Numbered from the stretch's first letter, positions 388-26,994 are shown. The stretch is 30,887 bases of DNA from Escherichia coli (GCF_003334335.1 NZ_QOWQ01000049.1), one strand, 5' to 3'. Numbers and translations are program-made. The notes: generated from the sequence alone by a model not told the origin.

Positions 388-1977
388 ATGCAACAACGTC
401 GTCCAGTCCGCCGCGCTCTGCTCAGTGTTTCTGACAAAGCCGGTATCGTCGAATTCGCCCAGGCACTTTCCGCACGCGGTGTGGAGCTGCTGTCTACAGG
501 GGGCACTGCCCGTCTGTTAGCAGAAAAAGGTCTGCCGGTAACCGAAGTTTCCGATTACACCGGTTTCCCGGAGATGATGGATGGACGCGTGAAGACCCTG
601 CATCCGAAAGTACATGGTGGCATTCTGGGCCGTCGCGGCCAGGACGATGCCATTATGGAAGAACATCAGATCCAGCCTATCGATATGGTGGTTGTTAACC
701 TGTATCCGTTCGCCCAGACCGTGGCCCGTGAAGGTTGCTCGCTGGAAGATGCGGTTGAGAACATCGATATCGGCGGCCCAACGATGGTGCGCTCCGCCGC
801 CAAGAACCATAAAGATGTCGCAATCGTGGTGAAGAGCAGCGACTATGACGCCATTATTAAAGAGATGGATGACAACGAAGGATCGCTGACGCTTGCAACC
901 CGTTTCGACCTCGCCATCAAAGCCTTCGAACACACTGCCGCCTACGACAGCATGATTGCCAACTACTTCGGCAGCATGGTTCCGGCTTACCACGGTGAAA
1001 GCAAAGAAGCCGCCGGTCGCTTCCCACGCACGCTGAACCTGAACTTCATTAAGAAGCTGGATATGCGTTACGGCGAGAACAGCCACCAGCAGGCTGCCTT
1101 CTATATAGAAGAGAATGTGAAAGAAGCCTCCGTTGCTACCGCAACCCAGGTTCAGGGTAAAGCCCTCTCTTATAACAACATCGCCGATACCGATGCGGCG
1201 CTGGAGTGCGTGAAAGAGTTCGCCGAGCCGGCATGTGTGATTGTGAAGCACGCCAACCCTTGCGGCGTGGCTATCGGCAATTCCATTCTTGATGCTTACG
1301 ATCGCGCGTACAAAACCGACCCAACCTCCGCATTCGGCGGCATCATTGCCTTTAACCGCGAGCTGGATGCGGAAACCGCACAGGCCATCATTTCTCGTCA
1401 GTTTGTCGAAGTGATTATTGCGCCGTCCGCCAGCGAAGAAGCCCTGAAAATCACCGCCGCCAAACAGAACGTACGCGTTCTGACCTGCGGTCAGTGGGGC
1501 GAGCGTGTTCCGGGCCTCGATTTCAAACGCGTGAACGGCGGTCTGCTGGTTCAGGATCGTGACCTGGGGATGGTCGGTGCGGAAGAACTGCGCGTGGTGA
1601 CCAAACGTCAGCCGAGCGAACAGGAACTGCGTGATGCGCTGTTCTGCTGGAAGGTGGCGAAGTTTGTGAAATCCAACGCTATCGTCTATGCCAAAAACAA
1701 TATGACTATCGGCATTGGCGCGGGCCAGATGAGCCGCGTGTACTCCGCAAAAATCGCCGGTATTAAAGCGGCCGATGAAGGCCTGGAAGTGAAAGGTTCC
1801 TCGATGGCTTCTGACGCGTTCTTCCCGTTCCGCGACGGTATTGATGCCGCCGCCGCTGCGGGCGTGACCTGCGTAATCCAGCCTGGCGGTTCTATCCGTG
1901 ATGACGAAGTGATTGCCGCCGCCGACGAGCACGGTATTGCGATGCTCTTCACCGACATGCGCCACTTCCGCCATTAA
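388..1977 (+). CDS. purH: Bifunctional AICAR transformylase / IMP cyclohydrolase
   Basis: 529-codon ORF; translation recognisable throughout as PurH (N-terminal MGS-like domain, LSTGGTA motif). AGGGGA Shine-Dalgarno 8 nt upstream of the ATG. Confidence 0.97.
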
Positions 1978-1988
1978 TGGAGCAATAG

Positions 1989-3278
1989 ATGAAAGTATTA
2001 GTGATTGGTAACGGCGGGCGCGAGCACGCGCTGGCCTGGAAAGCGGCCCAGTCGCCGCTGGTTGAGACTGTTTTTGTTGCTCCGGGTAATGCAGGCACTG
2101 CACTGGAACCCGCGCTGCAAAACGTTGCTATTGGCGTGACCGATATCCCGGCGCTGTTGGATTTCGCACAAAACGAAAAGATTGATCTGACCATCGTCGG
2201 CCCGGAAGCGCCGCTGGTGAAAGGCGTGGTCGATACCTTCCGCGCCGCCGGGCTGAAAATCTTCGGCCCAACCGCAGGTGCGGCCCAACTGGAAGGCTCA
2301 AAAGCGTTTACCAAAGATTTCCTGGCCCGCCATAAGATCCCTACGGCGGAATACCAGAACTTCACCGAGGTAGAACCTGCGCTGGCGTATCTGCGTGAGA
2401 AAGGCGCGCCAATCGTCATTAAAGCGGACGGTCTGGCTGCCGGGAAAGGCGTTATCGTGGCGATGACGCTGGAAGAAGCGGAAGCGGCTGTTCACGATAT
2501 GCTGGCGGGCAACGCTTTTGGCGACGCGGGTCATCGCATCGTTATCGAAGAGTTCCTCGATGGCGAAGAAGCGAGCTTTATCGTGATGGTGGACGGCGAG
2601 CATGTGCTGCCGATGGCTACCAGCCAGGATCACAAACGCGTAGGCGATAAAGATACCGGACCAAACACCGGCGGGATGGGCGCTTACTCCCCCGCGCCGG
2701 TAGTAACCGATGACGTTCATCAGCGCACCATGGAACGTATTATCTGGCCAACCGTGAAAGGCATGGCGGCGGAAGGCAACACCTACACCGGTTTTCTCTA
2801 CGCGGGCCTGATGATCGACAAACAGGGCAATCCGAAGGTTATTGAATTTAACTGCCGCTTTGGCGATCCGGAAACCCAGCCGATTATGCTGCGCATGAAG
2901 TCCGATCTGGTTGAGCTCTGCCTGGCGGCCTGTGAAAGCAAACTGGACGAGAAAACGTCCGAGTGGGATGAACGCGCTTCTCTCGGCGTGGTGATGGCTG
3001 CGGGTGGATATCCGGGTGATTACCGCACCGGTGACGTGATCCACGGCCTGCCGCTGGAAGAAGTGGCAGGCGGCAAAGTGTTCCACGCGGGCACAAAACT
3101 GGCGGATGACGAGCAGGTAGTGACCAACGGCGGGCGCGTACTGTGCGTCACCGCGCTGGGTCATACCGTGGCAGAAGCGCAGAAACGCGCCTATGCCTTA
3201 ATGACCGATATCCACTGGGACGACTGCTTCTGCCGGAAAGATATCGGCTGGCGCGCTATCGAACGCGAGCAGAACTAA
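1989..3278 (+). CDS. purD: Phosphoribosylamine-glycine ligase (GAR synthetase)
   Basis: 429-codon ORF starting 11 nt after the purH stop; ATP-grasp family translation typical of PurD. Confidence 0.97.
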   Translation: MKVLVIGNGGREHALAWKAAQSPLVETVFVAPGNAGTALEPALQNVAIGVTDIPALLDFAQNEKIDLTIVGPEAPLVKGVVDTFRAAGLKIFGPTAGAAQLEGSKAFTKDFLARHKIPTAEYQNFTEVEPALAYLREKGAPIVIKADGLAAGKGVIVAMTLEEAEAAVHDMLAGNAFGDAGHRIVIEEFLDGEEASFIVMVDGEHVLPMATSQDHKRVGDKDTGPNTGGMGAYSPAPVVTDDVHQRTMERIIWPTVKGMAAEGNTYTGFLYAGLMIDKQGNPKVIEFNCRFGDPETQPIMLRMKSDLVELCLAACESKLDEKTSEWDERASLGVVMAAGGYPGDYRTGDVIHGLPLEEVAGGKVFHAGTKLADDEQVVTNGGRVLCVTALGHTVAEAQKRAYALMTDIHWDDCFCRKDIGWRAIEREQN

Positions 3279-4600
3279 CGCGACAGTTTTGCCAATAGCG
3301 TTTTGCGCGTGATCCCTAACTGACGGGCGGCTTCGGTTTTGTTGCCGCCCGTTTTCTCCAGCGCCGCCAGAATCACCTCTTTTTCCACTTCCACCAACGG
3401 CTGAATATCCTGACTTTGTCCCAGCGGGATCGGCGTACTGGCAATCGCCAGCGGCAGCTCGCGTTCGGAAATATATTCCCCGGTCAGCAGCACCACTGCC
3501 CGTTCCACCGCGTTTTCCAGCTCACGAATATTTCCCGGCCAGTCGTAATGAATCAACAGATCCATCGCCTGGGGCGTAAAACCTTTTACCGCCTTGCGAT
3601 TACGCTCGGCAAAGCGCTGCAGAAAATGGCCAGCCAGCAGAGGGATATCTTCCCGCCGTTGCCGCAGCGATGGTACTTCAATCGCCACCACATTCAGGCG
3701 ATAGTAGAGATCCTGGCGAAAACGCCCGGCATTCACCTCTGCGGCAAGATCGCGATGGGTCGCCGCAATCAGCCGGACATCAACCGAGATAATCTGGTTG
3801 CTACCGACACGCTGAACTTCGCGCTCCTGAATCGCACGCAGCAGACGCACCTGCATCATCGGCGAGATATCGCCAATTTCATCGAGAAACAGCGTGCCGC
3901 CGTCCGCCTCAACAAAGCGCCCTTCCCGGCGTTTATCGGCTCCAGTAAACGCCCCTTTTTCGTGACCGAACAATTCAGATTCCAGCAAGGATTCGTTGAG
4001 TGCCGCACAGTTGAGCGTTACCAGCGGTTTTTCGCTACGTGCGCTACTGGCGTGAATCGCCCTGGCGACCAGCTCTTTACCGGTGCCGGAATCGCCGTGG
4101 ATCAGTACCGTGGCTTCCGATGGCGCGACGAGGGCGATTTCACTGAGCAGGTGTTGCATCGCCGGGCTTTTACCGACCATACCGAACTGGCTGGCAGTCA
4201 CCGCAGGTGTTTCAGCATCAATACTGTGCGTATGCGCGAGCGCTTTTTCCAGCGTCGCCTGTAGGTTATCGAAATCCAGCGGCTTGATGAGATAATCCAG
4301 CGCCCCAGTTTTCAGTGCCTCTACCGCCGTCTCGACGCTGGAGTACGCAGTCATAATCAGCACCGGAATTGCCGGGTTTAACGCTTTGATCTCTTTCAGC
4401 GTGGCGATGCCGTCCATCTCCGCCATTCGCACATCGCAAAGCACAAGATCAAAAACCTGTTCCCGCACCTGCTCCAACGCCTGTCGCCCGCTGTTCGCCA
4501 GCGCGACGTTATAGCCCCAGCCGCGCAGTAAAGCCTGCAAAATAGTGCAGTGGCTAATGTCATCATCCACCACCAGAATATCGATATTATCGTGCGTCAT
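3275..4600 (-). CDS. zraR: Sigma54-dependent response regulator (receiver domain, AAA+ sigma54-activator domain with GAFTGA motif, C-terminal HTH)
   Basis: 441-codon ORF; NtrC-family architecture with GDSGTGKE Walker A, GAFTGA and Fis-type HTH. ATGA start/stop overlap with the upstream kinase gene. Confidence 0.95.
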
Positions 4601-5994
4601 CCTTGTGGGTCCTTACGCGTAATATTGACCGGAAGCCAGAGGGTGAACGTTGAGCCTTTTCCCTCCTGGCTTGCGACCTGAATTGTACCACCGTGTTGTT
4701 CAACAATATTATGCACGACCGCCAGCCCCAATCCGGTGCCTTCGGCTTTAGTGGTGAAGTACGGAGTGAAGATGGCATCAAGCTGATCTGCCGCAATTCC
4801 CTTACCGCTGTCGGTAACGCTGATTTTCACGCCCGCGCCGCTTTCGCTGGCCGTCACGCTAATCACGCCATGCTGACCAATCGCCTGAATAGCATTGAGA
4901 TAGAGATTCAACAGGACCTGAGTCAGCCTGTCCGGGTCGGCCTGAATTTCCGGTAATGTGTCGTTGGCGGTAAAGCGTAACTGGATCTCCCGGCTGTTTG
5001 CATCCTGACTTACCAGCTGTAATGAGTGGTTAATCAGCGTGTTGAGATCCACCGCCTGCAAAGCCAGATGCGTTGGCTTAACCAGTTCCAGCAACTCGCT
5101 TACCACGCGGTTTAAACGGTCGGCCTCTTTCGCCATCACCTGCGCCAGTTGATGCGCTTCTCCCCCTGCAGGCGCGCGCTCGGCAAAGTATTTCGCCAGT
5201 CCTTTAATCGAGGAAAGTGGGTTACGGATTTCGTGGGCAACGCCTGCCGCAAGATGCCCCAGCGCCACCAGCTTCTCTTTGCGCTTCATTTCATCTTGTA
5301 GAAGCTGGCGCGAGCGCAGATAGCGGCGATACCAGAAGAATGACAATACGCTTGCCAGCAAGACCGTCGCCAGGGCGAAGAGGATAATCAGGGTATTGCG
5401 CTTTTCCCCACTCTGGGTTGCAACCAGATCACTGGCATCAACGGCGATAAAAATAGCCTGTTGTGCATCTACTTGTGGCACAGCTTTGCCGTTACAGCGC
5501 GGCATATTGTGCATTCCATGCCGCCAGGGCGCTGACATTGGCTGGAACAAACGATAGACCTCAAGTGCAGGCGTAGTTTCCGTTTTCCCAAGCAGCCGCC
5601 AGCGGGAGTTTTCCTCTGGCTTTAATTTCTGCATTTCATCCGGCGAATAGAGCGCACGCCCGACCTTATCGGGGTCGCTATGAAGAATAATGATGCCCTG
5701 CGCATCGGTGACTGCGAACCACAACACTCCCGGCTGTCCCGCCATCTCTTCCAGAAGCGCCTGTTGCTGTACATGGTGCATTCGCATCCCCATCCCTACG
5801 CGGCTTCCCGACTCCAGAGCGCGGATAAGCACATTACCTTTTTCCAGTAATGCCTGGCGGTCTGCCTCGCTTGCCCGCCCATAATCACGAATCACAGTTA
5901 CCGCAAACAATCCCACCAGCCCAACAATGACCACGGGGAGGATCGCGCTTAACCATTTAGCTAAGGAGTCTTTAGAACGTTGCATAAAACGCAT
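4597..5994 (-). CDS. zraS: Sensor histidine kinase of the ZraSR two-component system
   Basis: 465-codon ORF with N-terminal transmembrane segment, periplasmic domain, second TM, H-box (GVAHEIRNPL) and HATPase motifs; translationally coupled to zraR. Confidence 0.95.
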   Translation of the reverse strand: MRFMQRSKDSLAKWLSAILPVVIVGLVGLFAVTVIRDYGRASEADRQALLEKGNVLIRALESGSRVGMGMRMHHVQQQALLEEMAGQPGVLWFAVTDAQGIIILHSDPDKVGRALYSPDEMQKLKPEENSRWRLLGKTETTPALEVYRLFQPMSAPWRHGMHNMPRCNGKAVPQVDAQQAIFIAVDASDLVATQSGEKRNTLIILFALATVLLASVLSFFWYRRYLRSRQLLQDEMKRKEKLVALGHLAAGVAHEIRNPLSSIKGLAKYFAERAPAGGEAHQLAQVMAKEADRLNRVVSELLELVKPTHLALQAVDLNTLINHSLQLVSQDANSREIQLRFTANDTLPEIQADPDRLTQVLLNLYLNAIQAIGQHGVISVTASESGAGVKISVTDSGKGIAADQLDAIFTPYFTTKAEGTGLGLAVVHNIVEQHGGTIQVASQEGKGSTFTLWLPVNITRKDPQG

Positions 5995-6231: not shown

Positions 6232-6657
6232 ATGAAACGGAACACGAAAATTGCCCTGGTAATGATGGCGCTTTCAGCAATGGCGATGGGATCGACATCT
6301 GCATTTGCTCACGGCGGACACGGTATGTGGCAGCAAAATGCCGCGCCTTTGACCAGCGAACAACAGACAGCGTGGCAGAAAATCCATAATGACTTTTACG
6401 CTCAAAGCAGCGCACTGCAACAGCAACTGGTGACGAAGCGTTATGAATACAATGCCCTGTTAGCCGCGAACCCACCGGATAGCAGCAAAATTAACGCGGT
6501 CGCCAAAGAGATGGAGAATTTGCGTCAGTCGTTAGATGAGTTACGGGTGAAACGAGATATCGCGATGGCTGAAGCGGGTATTCCGCGCGGAGCCGGAATG
6601 GGCATGGGCTACGGCGGCTGCGGTGGTGGCGGTCATATGGGTATGGGCCACTGGTAA
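6232..6657 (+). CDS. zraP: Periplasmic zinc-associated envelope-stress protein ZraP (signal peptide; Gly/Met/His-rich C-terminal tail)
   Basis: True start is the internal ATG at 6232 (MKRNTKIALVMMALSAMAMGSTSAFA signal peptide, GGAGG RBS). The 188-aa track ORF from 6091 runs through the promoter and enhancer and is an over-extension. Confidence 0.9.
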   Translation: MKRNTKIALVMMALSAMAMGSTSAFAHGGHGMWQQNAAPLTSEQQTAWQKIHNDFYAQSSALQQQLVTKRYEYNALLAANPPDSSKINAVAKEMENLRQSLDELRVKRDIAMAEAGIPRGAGMGMGYGGCGGGGHMGMGHW

Positions 6658-6658
6658 A

Positions 6659-7354
6659 TCAGAACGTTTTCTCGTTGGGTTGCCAGCGACAGAAATCAGA
6701 GTTTGCCACTAACAGTAATTGCGAACCTTCGGGCGCTTCCAGCCATGCCACGCTGACATCAACAGAAGAGCGGCTCTGGCGGCGCTCGATATGCGCTATC
6801 GCCTGCGAATCTAAATCAGGTTTAATGGTTTGCCCTTCGCAGGTGGTCACGGTCTGTTCCATCGCATGCCAGCGCCCCTGGCGCAGCACGACTCTCCCCT
6901 GACGTAAGGCATCGCTAATCTGGCGGATCTGATCAGCACGATAACGGTATAAATCGATTTGGTCGTTAGAAAGCTGCTGCTTTTCCCCATCGGATTCACG
7001 TTGCATAAAGCTCAGATCACCGCGATCGTCAAAACGCGCGCGAATATTCACCGGCGGTTTGCTGTAAACATTGATATTGATGAGCGTGAGGTTATCGCCC
7101 TGCCAGCGATACTCTCGCGTCGTGGTATCGCCACTGCGCCACGGGCTAAACACGGCAAGCAGATGCACATTATCGCCGCTGTCTTTTCGCCAGATGCGTA
7201 CCGCGCCCTGGTCTTCAGCAAATCCACTGGCGGTAAAGGGAGGAAGTGAAGAGTTATGACTACAGGCAGTGAGAAGCAGAGCGCCAGCCAGCATCAATGA
7301 TCGACGCCAGAAAGACAAAAGGGGTGAAACCACCCCTTCGTTAAAACTGTTCAC
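6659..7354 (-). CDS. yjaH: Putative lipoprotein YjaH (DUF1481 family)
   Basis: ORF with lipobox LLLTAC-S. The track ORF starts at a GTG at 7360; a second in-frame GTG at 7354 gives 231 aa and is the start I favour from recalled protein length. Start is uncertain by 2 codons. Confidence 0.75.
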   Translation of the reverse strand: MNSFNEGVVSPLLSFWRRSLMLAGALLLTACSHNSSLPPFTASGFAEDQGAVRIWRKDSGDNVHLLAVFSPWRSGDTTTREYRWQGDNLTLININVYSKPPVNIRARFDDRGDLSFMQRESDGEKQQLSNDQIDLYRYRADQIRQISDALRQGRVVLRQGRWHAMEQTVTTCEGQTIKPDLDSQAIAHIERRQSRSSVDVSVAWLEAPEGSQLLLVANSDFCRWQPNEKTF

Positions 7355-11622: not shown

Positions 11623-11650
11623 GCCCCATTTGCGGGGCTAATTTCTTGTC
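11623..11650 (+). terminator. Intrinsic terminator downstream of rsd
   Basis: 5-bp GC stem GCCCC/GGGGC with ATTTGC loop, followed by the T-rich tract TAATTTCTTGTC. Confidence 0.6.
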
Positions 11651-11735
11651 GGAGTGCCTTAACTGGCTGAGACCGTTTATTCGGGATCCGCGGAACCTGA
11701 TCAGGCTAATACCTGCGAAGGGAACAAGAGTTAAT
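11651..11735 (+). promoter_or_regulatory. TPP riboswitch (THI element) in the thiC leader
   Basis: Contains the conserved thi-box core CTGAGA (11667..11672) and the downstream AACCTGATCAGGCTAATACCTGCGAAGGGAAC segment, about 90 nt upstream of the thiC ATG. Confidence 0.85.
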
Positions 11736-11817
11736 CTGCTATCGCATCGCCCCTGCGGCGATCGTCTCTTGCTTCATCCGTCGTCTGACAAGCCACGTCC
11801 TTAACTTTTTGGAATGA

Positions 11818-17185: not shown

Positions 17186-17439
17186 GACGGAATGTAAGAA
17201 CGTAAATTTATTCCGAGCCGCTACGGAAGATGAAAAACGCAAGGTTGTTGAAAGCGTTGTGTTTTTTTATGGTAGTGCCGTCAGCAGGAATGTTGTCCAG
17301 GGCGAAAAGCTTCTTCCTCGTTTCGCCCTGCCTTTCTTAAAAATTCCGTAATGCAAAGTCTGAAGCCATCGCCTGTTGAGCAATGAAAGAGATCTGATTG
17401 TAAGAGAGTAAATACTCAACTATGATAGAGACGAAAATA

Positions 17440-17601
17440 AGAACACATGTTCTCATCTTCCAGGATGCAGCAGACTGAAGAAATTCAGACATCCCGCAAC
17501 CTGCGATTATCGCAAGGTCAAGGCAAAGTCCGGTAATGGCGTTCTGAATACCAGAGATAATTCTCTGGCGAAACCCACCTTAAGGTGGGTTTTGTTATTT
17601 T
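17440..17601 (+). ncRNA. sroH: Candidate small RNA at the 3' end of the thi transcript region (position matches the sRNA sroH reported between thiH and htrC in E. coli K-12); 5' end not determinable from sequence
   Basis: Two consecutive hairpins (CCAGAGA-TAAT-TCTCTGG at 17551..17568, then AAACCCACC-TTAA-GGTGGGTTT at 17571..17592) followed by TTTTGTTATTTT; the 3' end is well defined. The 5' boundary and the identity are from memory of the K-12 locus. Confidence 0.4.
17571..17601 (+). terminator. Strong intrinsic terminator (9-bp perfect stem, TTAA loop, T-rich tail)
   Basis: AAACCCACC TTAA GGTGGGTTT followed by TGTTATTTT, read directly. It is a good terminator only on the plus strand; on the minus strand the hairpin is followed by CGCC. 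Confidence 0.8.
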
Positions 17602-26920: not shown

Positions 26921-26954
26921 GCGCAAAAAGGCTGGTGACTAAAAAGTCACCAGC
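26921..26954 (-). terminator. rplL-rpoB intergenic attenuator (partial terminator)
   Basis: Perfect 9-bp inverted repeat GCTGGTGAC-TAAAAA-GTCACCAGC (26931..26954) which on the minus strand is followed by CUUUUUGCGCU; lies 41 to 64 nt downstream of the rplL stop. Confidence 0.75.
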
Positions 26955-26994
26955 CATCAGCCTGATTTCTCAGGCTGCAACCGGAAGGGTTGGC

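What the first reader, a model, noticed from the sequence alone, without database searches (positions are those of the whole stretch)
3275..3278. Convergent purD and zraR overlap at their stop codons
The purD TAA (3276..3278) and the zraR TAG (minus strand, 3275..3277) share bases, so there is no intergenic room for terminators between two convergently transcribed units. Termination of each must occur inside the other gene, or the transcripts collide.
Basis: seen in the sequence. Interest (0 to 1): 0.25.

Follow-up and report, generated by a model that had tools for sequence, protein, structure and literature searches.

The report
purD–zraR convergent stop-codon overlap
Two well-known E. coli genes on opposite strands, purD and zraR, end on the same four bases (CTAA), so each messenger RNA has to finish inside the other gene; this is a real but ordinary arrangement that has already been catalogued.

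Summary
The window is E. coli K-12 MG1655. purD (1989..3278, +) ends in TAA at 3276-3278. zraR (3275..4600, -) ends in TAG at 3275-3277. The coding sequences share CTAA (3275-3278), exactly as in RefSeq.

The overlap is conserved. It is 4 nt in 11 of 12 zraR-bearing loci from at least six enterobacterial genera, and 11 nt in Klebsiella aerogenes.

CTAA overlaps are a described class, with 58 convergent overlaps counted in E. coli. The zraR-purD pair is already listed as an overlapping-transcript pair ("excludon").

How each transcript probably ends:
- **purHD (inferred):** a hairpin with eight G-C pairs (3324-3351) followed by UUUUCUCC lies 46-81 nt past the purD stop, antisense to ZraR codons 415-426. 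All five four-fold wobble sites in its stem are invariant across 11 orthologues, against 12% gene-wide. No published 3' end confirms that it terminates transcription.
- **zraSR (published data):** there is no terminator-like hairpin past its stop. A bicyclomycin-sensitive Rho termination region maps about 190 nt into antisense purD.

The two mRNAs would therefore share roughly 270 nt of complementary 3' ends. Interest is low.

The parts
388..1977 (+). purH CDS, first gene of the purHD operon
   Evidence: NCBIfam TIGR00355, 908 bits; RefSeq annotation.
1989..3278 (+). purD CDS (phosphoribosylamine--glycine ligase); stop TAA at 3276-3278
   Evidence: ORF list; TIGR00877 over 1-425 of 425; RefSeq. 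The C-terminal tail ...RAIEREQN* has a normal length compared with relatives.
3275..3278 (.). Four shared bases, CTAA. Position 3275 is the purD Asn wobble base and the third base of the zraR stop. Positions 3276-3277 belong to both stop codons. Position 3278 is the third base of the purD stop and the wobble base of ZraR Arg441.
   Evidence: Read directly from the sequence. Conserved in 11 of 12 orthologous loci. The tetramer class is described in PMC2174442.
3275..4600 (-). zraR CDS (sigma-54-dependent response regulator); stop TAG at 3275-3277 read on the minus strand
   Evidence: ORF list; NF007689 over 1-441 of 441, 995 bits; RefSeq.
3324..3351 (+). Hairpin in the purHD-sense RNA. Arms CGGGCGGC (3324-3331) and GCCGCCCG (3344-3351) form eight G-C pairs around a 12-nt loop with two inner pairs. 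Predicted free energy is -18.4 kcal/mol, or -21.4 for 3322-3353. It is the candidate intrinsic terminator stem and lies antisense to ZraR codons T417-R426.
   Evidence: Folding. It is the only site of its kind in the window, against 0.15 expected from shuffles. It is invariant in 12 of 12 orthologous loci. All five four-fold wobble sites in the stem are invariant, against 11.9% gene-wide: Fisher p = 1.4e-5, gene-wide scan p = 0.008.
3352..3359 (+). U-rich tract directly after the stem: TTTTCTCC in E. coli, TTTTTTC in most other genera
   Evidence: Sequence; orthologue alignment. It is weaker in K. grimontii (TTCTTTC).
2954..3194 (-). Zone of likely Rho loading and termination for the zraSR transcript. 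This is untranslated RNA antisense to the purD 3' end with more C than G. The published Rho-score peak, NC_000913.3 position 4204911, maps to about window 3084.
   Evidence: C is 31-40% with a C/G ratio of 1.17-1.82, from 80 to 320 nt past the zraR stop. Adams et al. 2021, Supplementary file 2: 4204911 (+), antisense to purD; reads upstream/downstream 74/17 without bicyclomycin and 172/169 with it; Rho score 4.28, p = 5.7e-8. No hairpin plus U-tract lies on this strand.
4597..5994 (-). zraS CDS, upstream gene of the zraSR operon. It overlaps zraR by ATGA (4597-4600).
   Evidence: ORF list; NF007688; sequence.

Best explanation
purD, the last gene of the purHD operon, and zraR, the last gene of the zraSR operon, converge and share the tetramer CTAA, so there is no intergenic DNA. 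Each mRNA ends inside the other gene, by a different route.

1. **purHD mRNA (inferred).** It runs 46-81 nt past the purD stop to an intrinsic terminator: a hairpin with eight G-C pairs at 3324-3351 followed by UUUUCUCC. The hairpin is written on the antisense strand of the ZraR helix-turn-helix codons (E415[11 protein letters not shown]426). The Gly-Gly codons GGC GGC pair with the Ala-Ala codons GCC GCC. These synonymous choices are held fixed by selection.

2. **zraSR mRNA (published data plus composition).** It has no hairpin or U-tract past its stop. Once ribosomes leave at the TAG, the RNA antisense to purD is untranslated and richer in C than G. Rho loads there and terminates about 100-300 nt into purD.

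The two mRNAs would therefore carry roughly 270 nt of complementary 3' ends (about 3084..3357). That is typical for convergent E. coli operons.

The overlap itself is simply the most compact stable way for two convergent genes to abut. It arose when the zraP-zraSR cassette came to lie between purD and yjaH.
For: **Shown here**
- Overlap and gene identity.
- Conservation of the overlap and of the hupA-yjaH-zraP-zraS-zraR><purD-purH gene order in at least six genera.
- The hairpin with U-tract is the only such site on either strand of the 30.9-kb window, against 0.15 expected from shuffles. Its predicted free energy is -18.4 kcal/mol.
- The stem is invariant in 12 of 12 loci. The four-fold site in the loop (Thr422, ACN) shows all four bases.
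- All 5 stem wobble sites are invariant, against 18 of 151 (11.9%) gene-wide. Fisher p = 1.4e-5; permutation p for any such window in zraR = 0.008.
- purD shows no comparable cluster of invariant synonymous sites.
- The closest E. coli paralogue, AtoC, has a different motif (EGNRTRTAL) and no such hairpin.
- Four relatives that lack zraPSR at this site (Pluralibacter, Cedecea, Shimwellia, Mangrovibacter) carry a classical hairpin plus T-run directly after purD. So purHD is normally ended intrinsically.

**Published**
- Rho termination region at 4204911 (+), antisense to purD (PMC7815308).
- That dataset lists no Rho region on the purD strand within zraR.
- zraR-purD is listed as a convergent excludon (PMC12288877).
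- 75% of convergent E. coli operons overlap at their 3' ends, by 286 nt on average (PMC4161252).
- In 21 of 58 E. coli convergent overlaps at least one gene has a predicted rho-independent terminator, which in such pairs has to lie in coding sequence (PMC2174442).
Against: - No measured RNA 3' end supports the hairpin. The curated Term-seq 3' ends of Adams et al. (LB and M63 media) have no entry anywhere in 4203900-4205099 except the Rho region at 4204911.
- No other dataset I could open covered this locus.
- The E. coli U-tract is short (four U, then CUCC) and the loop is long (12 nt). The tool's standard terminator scan missed the site for that reason. Termination may therefore be partial.
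- The stem never varies, so there is no covariation evidence. The same palindrome also folds in the zraR sense RNA, so the synonymous constraint could serve zraR.
- The Rho-score peak comes from 800-nt windows and is imprecise.
- Mapping it to window coordinates uses NC_000913.3 gene coordinates that I recalled. I checked them only against the paper's gene labels and against the identical purD-zraP span.
- Salmonella was not sampled.
Confidence: 0.6

Rival explanations
1. The hairpin is conserved for reasons internal to zraR, or as a DNA-level palindrome, and is not the purHD terminator. Possible reasons include sense-strand mRNA structure, local control of translation speed or accuracy at the helix-turn-helix, or mRNA stability. 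On this reading purHD transcription reads far into zraR and zraS as antisense RNA and fades out through Rho or RNA decay.
For: - The palindrome folds equally well in the sense RNA.
- No published 3' end lies at the site.
- The U-tract is modest in E. coli and weaker still in K. grimontii.
- The antisense-zraR RNA also has more C than G (C/G up to 2.4 at 3339-3416), so Rho could act there.
Against: - The U-rich tract lies on the purD-strand side only. On the zraR strand the hairpin is followed by CAGUUAGGG.
- The hairpin sits 46 nt after the purD stop, where four relatives without zraPSR at this site carry a classical terminator.
- Adams et al. list no bicyclomycin-sensitive region on the purD strand within zraR.
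- A hairpin inside a translated CDS, 15 codons before the stop, has no obvious sense-strand role.
Confidence: 0.22
2. Head-on collisions between converging RNA polymerases set the 3' ends of both transcripts. This is the collision-driven bidirectional termination model of Ju et al. 2019 and Wang et al. 2022. The hairpin would act as a pause element rather than a classical terminator.
For: - The model was proposed for convergent E. coli gene pairs, with an RNA hairpin in the overlapping region that pauses polymerases (bioRxiv 10.1101/2022.10.23.513370).
- This pair has no spacer, so polymerases on the two strands must meet whenever both operons are active.
Against: - zraSR is a sigma-54 operon induced by zinc or lead, whereas purHD is a PurR-controlled housekeeping operon (established knowledge). 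Frequent simultaneous transcription from both sides is therefore unlikely.
- In the published data, efficient collision termination was analysed for gene pairs expressed on both sides.
- The zraSR-side end is sensitive to bicyclomycin, meaning Rho-dependent. The bidirectional class was described as Rho-independent.
- There is no A-tract 5' of the hairpin, so it has no terminator-like character in the zraR direction.
Confidence: 0.08
3. The overlap is a regulatory excludon. Complementary 3' ends or transcriptional interference would make purHD and zraSR expression mutually antagonistic, linking purine supply to the envelope and zinc stress response. This can coexist with the best explanation.
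For: - zraR-purD is in the ExcludonFinder 'excludome'.
- The predicted complementary region is roughly 270 nt.
- The arrangement is conserved across genera.
Against: - Any two expressed genes whose CDSs overlap meet the ExcludonFinder criterion trivially.
- I found no data showing reciprocal expression, RNase III cleavage or a phenotype.
- A conserved embedded terminator would limit interference rather than promote it.
- The conserved gene order is explained by vertical inheritance.
Confidence: 0.08
4. The overlap is an annotation artefact, with one of the two genes really ending earlier.
For: None found.
Against: - Both proteins match their curated family profiles to the last profile position.
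- Stop codons are fixed by the reading frame, not by an annotator's choice.
- Both C-termini are conserved in orthologues.
- Rare E. coli alleles that lose the TAG extend ZraR by 15 or 28 residues into antisense purD, which shows that the TAG is the working stop.
Confidence: 0.01

Closest known systems
Convergent (tail-to-tail) 4-nt gene overlaps at CTAA/TTAA/CTAG/TTAG (Lillo and Krakauer 2007, Biol Direct, PMC2174442)
   Same: This is exactly that configuration. Two stop codons on opposite strands are packed into the tetramer CTAA. It is one of the E. coli convergent overlaps, of which that paper counted 58. The paper also makes the point that a rho-independent terminator must then lie in the partner's coding sequence.
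   Different: Nothing categorical. I could not check whether this pair is among the 21 overlaps that paper scored as having a predicted terminator.
Overlapping 3' ends of convergent operons, or 'excludons' (Conway et al. 2014, PMC4161252; ExcludonFinder 2025, PMC12288877)
   Same: The convergent transcripts have complementary 3' ends. The pair zraR-purD is named in the ExcludonFinder list. The predicted overlap of roughly 270 nt is close to the 286-nt average.
   Different: A regulatory consequence, which is the defining idea of an excludon, has not been shown for this pair. Here the overlap is forced by the CDS overlap rather than by a leaky intergenic terminator.
Rho-dependent termination of untranslated or antisense RNA downstream of a stop codon (Adams et al. 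2021, PMC7815308)
   Same: The zraSR side shows bicyclomycin-sensitive read-through, with a peak about 190 nt past the stop. The RNA there is untranslated and has more C than G.
   Different: The terminating region lies wholly inside an essential-pathway gene on the other strand. No synonymous-site constraint is visible in purD there.
Collision-driven bidirectional terminators between convergent genes (Ju et al. 2019; Wang et al. 2022 preprint, 10.1101/2022.10.23.513370)
   Same: A convergent pair with a hairpin-forming palindrome in the region that both polymerases traverse.
   Different: There is no intergenic region. The hairpin has a U-tract on one side only and no A-tract on the other. 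One side depends on Rho. The two operons are unlikely to be highly active together.
Classical intrinsic terminators that follow purD in relatives without zraPSR at this site (Pluralibacter, Cedecea, Shimwellia, Mangrovibacter)
   Same: A G+C-rich hairpin and T-run lie within about 20-110 nt of the purD stop. This is the same presumed job of ending purHD.
   Different: In those genomes the terminator is intergenic. In E. coli and its zraR-bearing relatives the equivalent element has to double as ZraR helix-turn-helix codons.

Membership tests
Convergent 4-nt CDS overlap (CTAA class) | Two genuine protein-coding genes on opposite strands, each complete to its C-terminus | tested here: met
   PurD matches TIGR00877 over 1-425 of 425. 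ZraR matches NF007689 over 1-441 of 441. RefSeq annotates the same ends.
Convergent 4-nt CDS overlap (CTAA class) | Both stop codons are contained in one of the tetramers CTAA, TTAA, CTAG or TTAG | tested here: met
   CTAA at 3275-3278. The tetramers are defined in PMC2174442.
Convergent 4-nt CDS overlap (CTAA class) | The arrangement is stable in orthologous loci and not a strain-specific accident | tested here: met
   The junction stretch is present in 5421 of 5426 E. coli genomes. Eleven of 12 loci from at least six genera have CTAA, and K. aerogenes has an 11-nt variant.
Intrinsic (Rho-independent) terminator | A stable G+C-rich stem-loop in the nascent RNA | tested here: met
   Eight G-C pairs, -18.4 kcal/mol. 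The 12-nt loop is long for the class.
Intrinsic (Rho-independent) terminator | A U-rich tract immediately 3' of the stem | tested here: inconclusive
   UUUUCUCC in E. coli (four consecutive U), UUUUUUC in most other genera, UUCUUUC in K. grimontii. This is adequate but not strong.
Intrinsic (Rho-independent) terminator | Located shortly downstream of the last stop codon of a transcription unit, on the sense strand | tested here: met
   The stem starts 46 nt after the purD TAA, on the purD strand.
Intrinsic (Rho-independent) terminator | An RNA 3' end or transcript release at the U-tract, in vivo or in vitro | tested here: inconclusive
   No 3' end is listed in 4203900-4205099 in the curated tables of Adams et al.. 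Absence from a thresholded list is weak evidence.
Rho-dependent terminator | Read-through increases when Rho is inhibited with bicyclomycin | tested here: met
   Looked up, not measured here. PMC7815308, Supplementary file 2: 4204911 (+); 74/17 reads without bicyclomycin and 172/169 with it; Rho score 4.28, p = 5.7e-8.
Rho-dependent terminator | An untranslated RNA segment with more C than G upstream of the release zone (a rut-like loading site) | tested here: met
   C is 31-40% with C/G of 1.17-1.82, from 80 to 320 nt past the zraR stop on the minus-strand RNA.
Excludon | Transcripts of neighbouring opposite-strand genes overlap | tested here: met
   Listed in ExcludonFinder Table 1. This is also forced by the CDS overlap.
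Excludon | The overlap causes mutually exclusive expression, through interference or RNase III processing | not testable with these tools
   No expression or cleavage data for this pair were found.
Bidirectional terminator (Ju et al. 2019 class) | An intergenic hairpin element that gives defined 3' ends in both directions, independent of Rho | tested here: not met
   There is no intergenic DNA. The hairpin has no A-tract on its 5' side. The zraSR-side end is sensitive to bicyclomycin.

The most novel reading that the evidence does not exclude
The embedded hairpin is a dual-use element under selection that sets how much purHD transcription invades zraSR. The roughly 270-nt complementary 3' ends, or polymerase collisions, would then couple purine-biosynthesis activity to the level of the ZraSR envelope and zinc stress system. 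That would make it a functional excludon whose 'valve' is written into the synonymous sites of a transcription factor's DNA-binding helix.
Probability: 0.08. Interest if true: 0.4.

Novelty: already known. Interest (0 to 1): 0.12.

Why it matters
It matters little as a discovery. The overlap is in the standard E. coli annotation. The CTAA class and its consequence for terminators were described in 2007. The pair is also already listed among overlapping-transcript pairs.

The useful by-product is a clean, testable example of dual coding. An apparent intrinsic terminator for a housekeeping operon is built from the Gly-Gly and Ala-Ala codons of a convergent regulator's helix-turn-helix, and synonymous-site conservation across genera supports it.

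This is relevant to anyone who recodes or deletes zraR, or who designs synonymous libraries. Changing codons 417-426 or removing zraR could alter purHD 3' end formation.

Tried and rejected
- **Standard terminator scan of 2300-4300.** It gave four hits against 2.6 expected and none at the junction. It missed the 3324-3351 hairpin because its loop limit is 8 nt. The minus-strand hits at 2960 and 2672 are at chance level, so I did not use them.
- **Folding the minus-strand RNA past the zraR stop.** The z-score was -0.84 and there was no terminator-like structure.
- **Published 3' ends for purHD.** The Adams et al. tables have none here. The TERMITe supplements have no purD or zraR entry. The SMRT-Cappable-seq supplements have none. 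No supplement text is held for Choe 2022, Dar and Sorek 2018, Conway 2014, ExcludonFinder, the Rend-seq annotation paper or the Nanopore paper. Ju et al. 2019 is not held.
- **Full-text searches.** Searches for purHD with terminator, for hydG/purD overlap and for the hairpin sequence itself found nothing relevant.
- **Protein search with E. coli ZraR.** It returned only Escherichia clusters. A second search with Kluyvera ZraR was needed to reach other genera. Salmonella was not recovered.
- **Rfam on the whole window.** Nothing at the junction.
- **'The hairpin is a generic by-product of NtrC-family helix-turn-helix motifs.'** The closest paralogue, AtoC, lacks both the motif and the hairpin. 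The wobble-site test also argues against codon bias alone. Only one paralogue was checked.
- **'purD or zraR was extended or truncated to create the overlap.'** Both tails have normal length.

Full report
**1. The observation**

The window is identical to E. coli K-12 MG1655 over the 1.2 kb tested. Its RefSeq annotation runs purH, purD, zraR, zraS, zraP, yjaH, hupA and on to tufB.

Around the finding the plus strand reads ...cag aac TAA cgc....
- The purD ORF (1989..3278) stops at TAA, 3276-3278.
- The minus-strand ORF (3275..4600) stops at TAG, the reverse complement of CTA at 3275-3277.
- The stop codons share two bases, and the coding sequences share four (CTAA, 3275-3278).

Both proteins match their curated families to the final profile position. 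PurD matches TIGR00877 over 1-425 of 425, and ZraR matches NF007689 over 1-441 of 441. The ends are therefore real.

**2. Chance or stable feature?**

The junction stretch 3236-3375 is present at 95.7% identity or better in 5421 of 5426 complete E. coli genomes.

A scan of one genome per species with PurD returned 80 loci across Gammaproteobacteria. zraR lies convergent to purD only in Escherichia, Citrobacter and Kluyvera among these.

I fetched seven more zraR orthologues: Klebsiella grimontii, K. aerogenes, Kosakonia arachidis, Phytobacter diazotrophicus, Kluyvera intermedia and two others. All show the same gene order, hupA-yjaH-zraP-zraS-zraR><purD-purH.
- The overlap is 4 nt (CTAA) in 11 of the 12 loci aligned.
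- K. aerogenes has an 11-nt overlap. A 1-nt deletion shifts the purD frame past CTAA to a TGA 7 nt further on.
- CTAA is kept even where purD is one codon longer (K. grimontii, Phytobacter).

Rare E. coli alleles show what happens when the TAG is lost.
- A change to CAG also turns the purD TAA into TGA, and it extends ZraR by 28 residues.
- A change to TAY extends ZraR by 15 residues.

Enterobacteriaceae that lack zraPSR at this site have purD and yjaH converging across a roughly 50-150-nt spacer. They include Enterobacter asburiae, Leclercia, Pseudocitrobacter, Pluralibacter, Cedecea, Shimwellia and Mangrovibacter.

**3. Where the purHD transcript probably ends (inferred)**

Folding the plus-strand RNA past the purD stop gives one dominant hairpin (z = -2.6 for 3260-3380).
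- Its arms are CGGGCGGC (3324-3331) and GCCGCCCG (3344-3351).
- It has a 12-nt loop and a predicted free energy of -18.4 kcal/mol.
- It is followed at once by UUUUCUCC.

I ran a relaxed scan requiring at least 7 perfect pairs, at least 6 of them G-C, a loop of up to 14 nt and at least 4 T in the next 5 bases. This is the only such site on either strand of the 30.9-kb window. Dinucleotide shuffles give 0.15 per window. The tool's own scan missed it because of the loop length.

The hairpin is antisense to ZraR codons T417-G-G-N-K-T-E-A-A-R426 in the helix-turn-helix. The Gly-Gly codons GGC GGC pair with the Ala-Ala codons GCC GCC.

The protein motif constrains codon positions 1 and 2, so I tested only wobble positions across 11 zraR orthologues (76-93% nucleotide identity to K-12).
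- Of 151 four-fold-degenerate sites in columns with an invariant amino acid, only 18 (11.9%) are invariant.
- Five of those 18 are exactly the five stem wobble sites.
- The four-fold site in the loop (Thr422) shows all four bases.
- Fisher's exact test for 5 of 5 against 13 of 146 gives p = 1.4e-5.
- A permutation test for any window of six consecutive four-fold sites with at least five invariant gives p = 0.008. The hairpin is the top window in the gene.
- purD has no comparable cluster.

The closest E. coli paralogue, AtoC, has EGNRTRTAL at this position and no hairpin. The U-rich tract is TTTTTTC in most other genera. Four relatives without zraPSR at this site (Pluralibacter, Cedecea, Shimwellia, Mangrovibacter) carry textbook terminators right after purD.

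Together this makes an intrinsic terminator embedded in zraR the best reading. It remains an inference, because I found no measured 3' end at the site.

**4. Where the zraSR transcript ends (published data plus composition)**

Past the zraR stop, the minus strand has no hairpin or U-tract.

Adams et al. 2021 (PMC7815308, Supplementary file 2) list a Rho termination region on the genomic plus strand. Its highest Rho score is at 4204911, classified as antisense to purD.
- Reads upstream/downstream are 74/17 without bicyclomycin.
- They are 172/169 with bicyclomycin.
- The Rho score is 4.28 and p = 5.7e-8.

With purD at 4204717-4206006, that is about 190 nt past the zraR stop, or about window 3084. 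I recalled those coordinates. I cross-checked them against the paper's gene labels and against the identical 4668-bp purD-zraP span in the record.

The minus-strand RNA 80-320 nt past the stop is 31-40% C, with a C/G ratio of 1.17-1.82. That fits Rho loading on untranslated RNA. The Rho score uses 800-nt windows, so the position is approximate.

**5. Consequence**

The two mRNAs would be complementary over about 3084-3357, roughly 270 nt. Conway et al. 2014 found that 75% of 370 convergent E. coli operon pairs overlap at their 3' ends, by 286 nt on average (PMC4161252). ExcludonFinder (PMC12288877) names zraR-purD among 165 convergent pairs whose transcripts overlap in at least 50% of 58 MG1655 RNA-seq samples.

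**6. Comparison with what is known**

[quoted passage not shown] They count 58 convergent overlaps in E. coli. They note that rho-independent terminators for such genes must lie in coding sequence. They find predicted terminators for one gene in 19 overlaps and for both genes in 2.

The present case is a member of that class.

It does not fit the bidirectional, collision-driven terminator class of Ju et al. and Wang et al..
- There is no intergenic element.
- There is no A-tract on the other side of the hairpin.
- One side depends on Rho.

Whether it is a functional excludon with reciprocal regulation is untested.

**7. Verdict**

The finding is ordinary and already catalogued.

The one modest addition is the hairpin and U-tract inside the ZraR helix-turn-helix codons, conserved at synonymous sites. 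It is a plausible dual-coding terminator for purHD and needs a direct 3'-end measurement.

- Interest: 0.12.
- Novelty: already known. The embedded terminator, if confirmed, would be a new member of a known kind.

Noticed in passing
window 6655-6661 (zraP 6232..6657 +, yjaH 6659..7354 -): The other edge of the zra cassette is just as tight. The zraP TAA and the yjaH TGA (plus strand TAAaTCA) are one base apart. Adams et al. list a strong Rho termination region at 4201402 (+), antisense to zraP, with Rho score 17.2. That maps to about window 6593, roughly 65 nt past the yjaH stop. ExcludonFinder also lists yjaH-zraP.
   Followed up: partly
window 4454-4474 (-), ZraR residues 43-49: ZraR length varies among E. 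coli strains at 437, 441 and 445 aa. The cause is the copy number of an in-frame 12-nt repeat that encodes EQVR in the receiver domain: [16 protein letters not shown] or [14 protein letters not shown]. Other in-frame duplications also occur, for example DYLIKPL and [18 protein letters not shown].
   Followed up: no
window 3275-3278; proteins P0001 and P0002: Rare E. coli alleles lose the zraR stop. TAG to CAG simultaneously turns the purD TAA into TGA and extends ZraR by 28 residues, read antisense through purD. TAG to TAY changes the last purD codon and extends ZraR by 15 residues. Each was seen on a single contig.
   Followed up: partly
L083 (Klebsiella aerogenes), junction at locus 4322-4332: This locus has an 11-nt purD/zraR overlap instead of 4 nt. 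A 1-nt deletion near the purD end (gagcaaaacTAA becomes gagaaaactaacggcTGA) shifts the frame past CTAA, giving the PurD tail ...AREKTNG*.
   Followed up: yes
L004-L020 versus L003, L006, L029, L082-L088: zraP-zraSR is present or absent as a block between purD and yjaH among Enterobacteriaceae. It is absent in Enterobacter asburiae, Leclercia, Pseudocitrobacter, Superficieibacter, Phytobacter massiliensis, Pluralibacter, Cedecea, Shimwellia and Mangrovibacter. It is present in Escherichia, Citrobacter, Kluyvera, Klebsiella, Kosakonia and Phytobacter diazotrophicus. I did not resolve whether this reflects insertion or loss. Several genomes without the cassette have a CCCTCTCCC...GGGAGAGGG hairpin with no T-run after purD.
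   Followed up: partly
L002 (Escherichia albertii NBRC 107761), 3308-4631: zraR appears disrupted in this strain. The longest ORF is 266 aa (3831..4631), and the PurD-proximal part is out of frame. The CTAA junction and the hairpin sequence are nevertheless intact.
   Followed up: no
hit H1, NZ_AP025180.1 (E. coli JP538): An IS1A element interrupts the matched 1.2-kb purD/zraR stretch in one strain. The match falls in two pieces, and zraR is annotated as two fragments: an HTH domain protein and a sigma-54-interacting regulator.
   Followed up: no
window 4597-4600: zraS and zraR overlap by ATGA, the zraS TGA stop inside the zraR ATG start. This is the usual co-directional 4-nt overlap associated with translational coupling. 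Similar co-directional junctions occur in the thi operon: thiC/E share 1 nt, thiE/F 8 nt, thiF/S 17 nt and thiG/H 4 nt.
   Followed up: no
window 11640-11740 (+), 17433-17593 (+), 26929-26990 (-): Rfam matches at gathering score are the TPP riboswitch upstream of thiC, the sRNA sroH between thiH and yjaZ, and a 'P26' match just downstream of rplL. All are expected for this region of E. coli.
   Followed up: no
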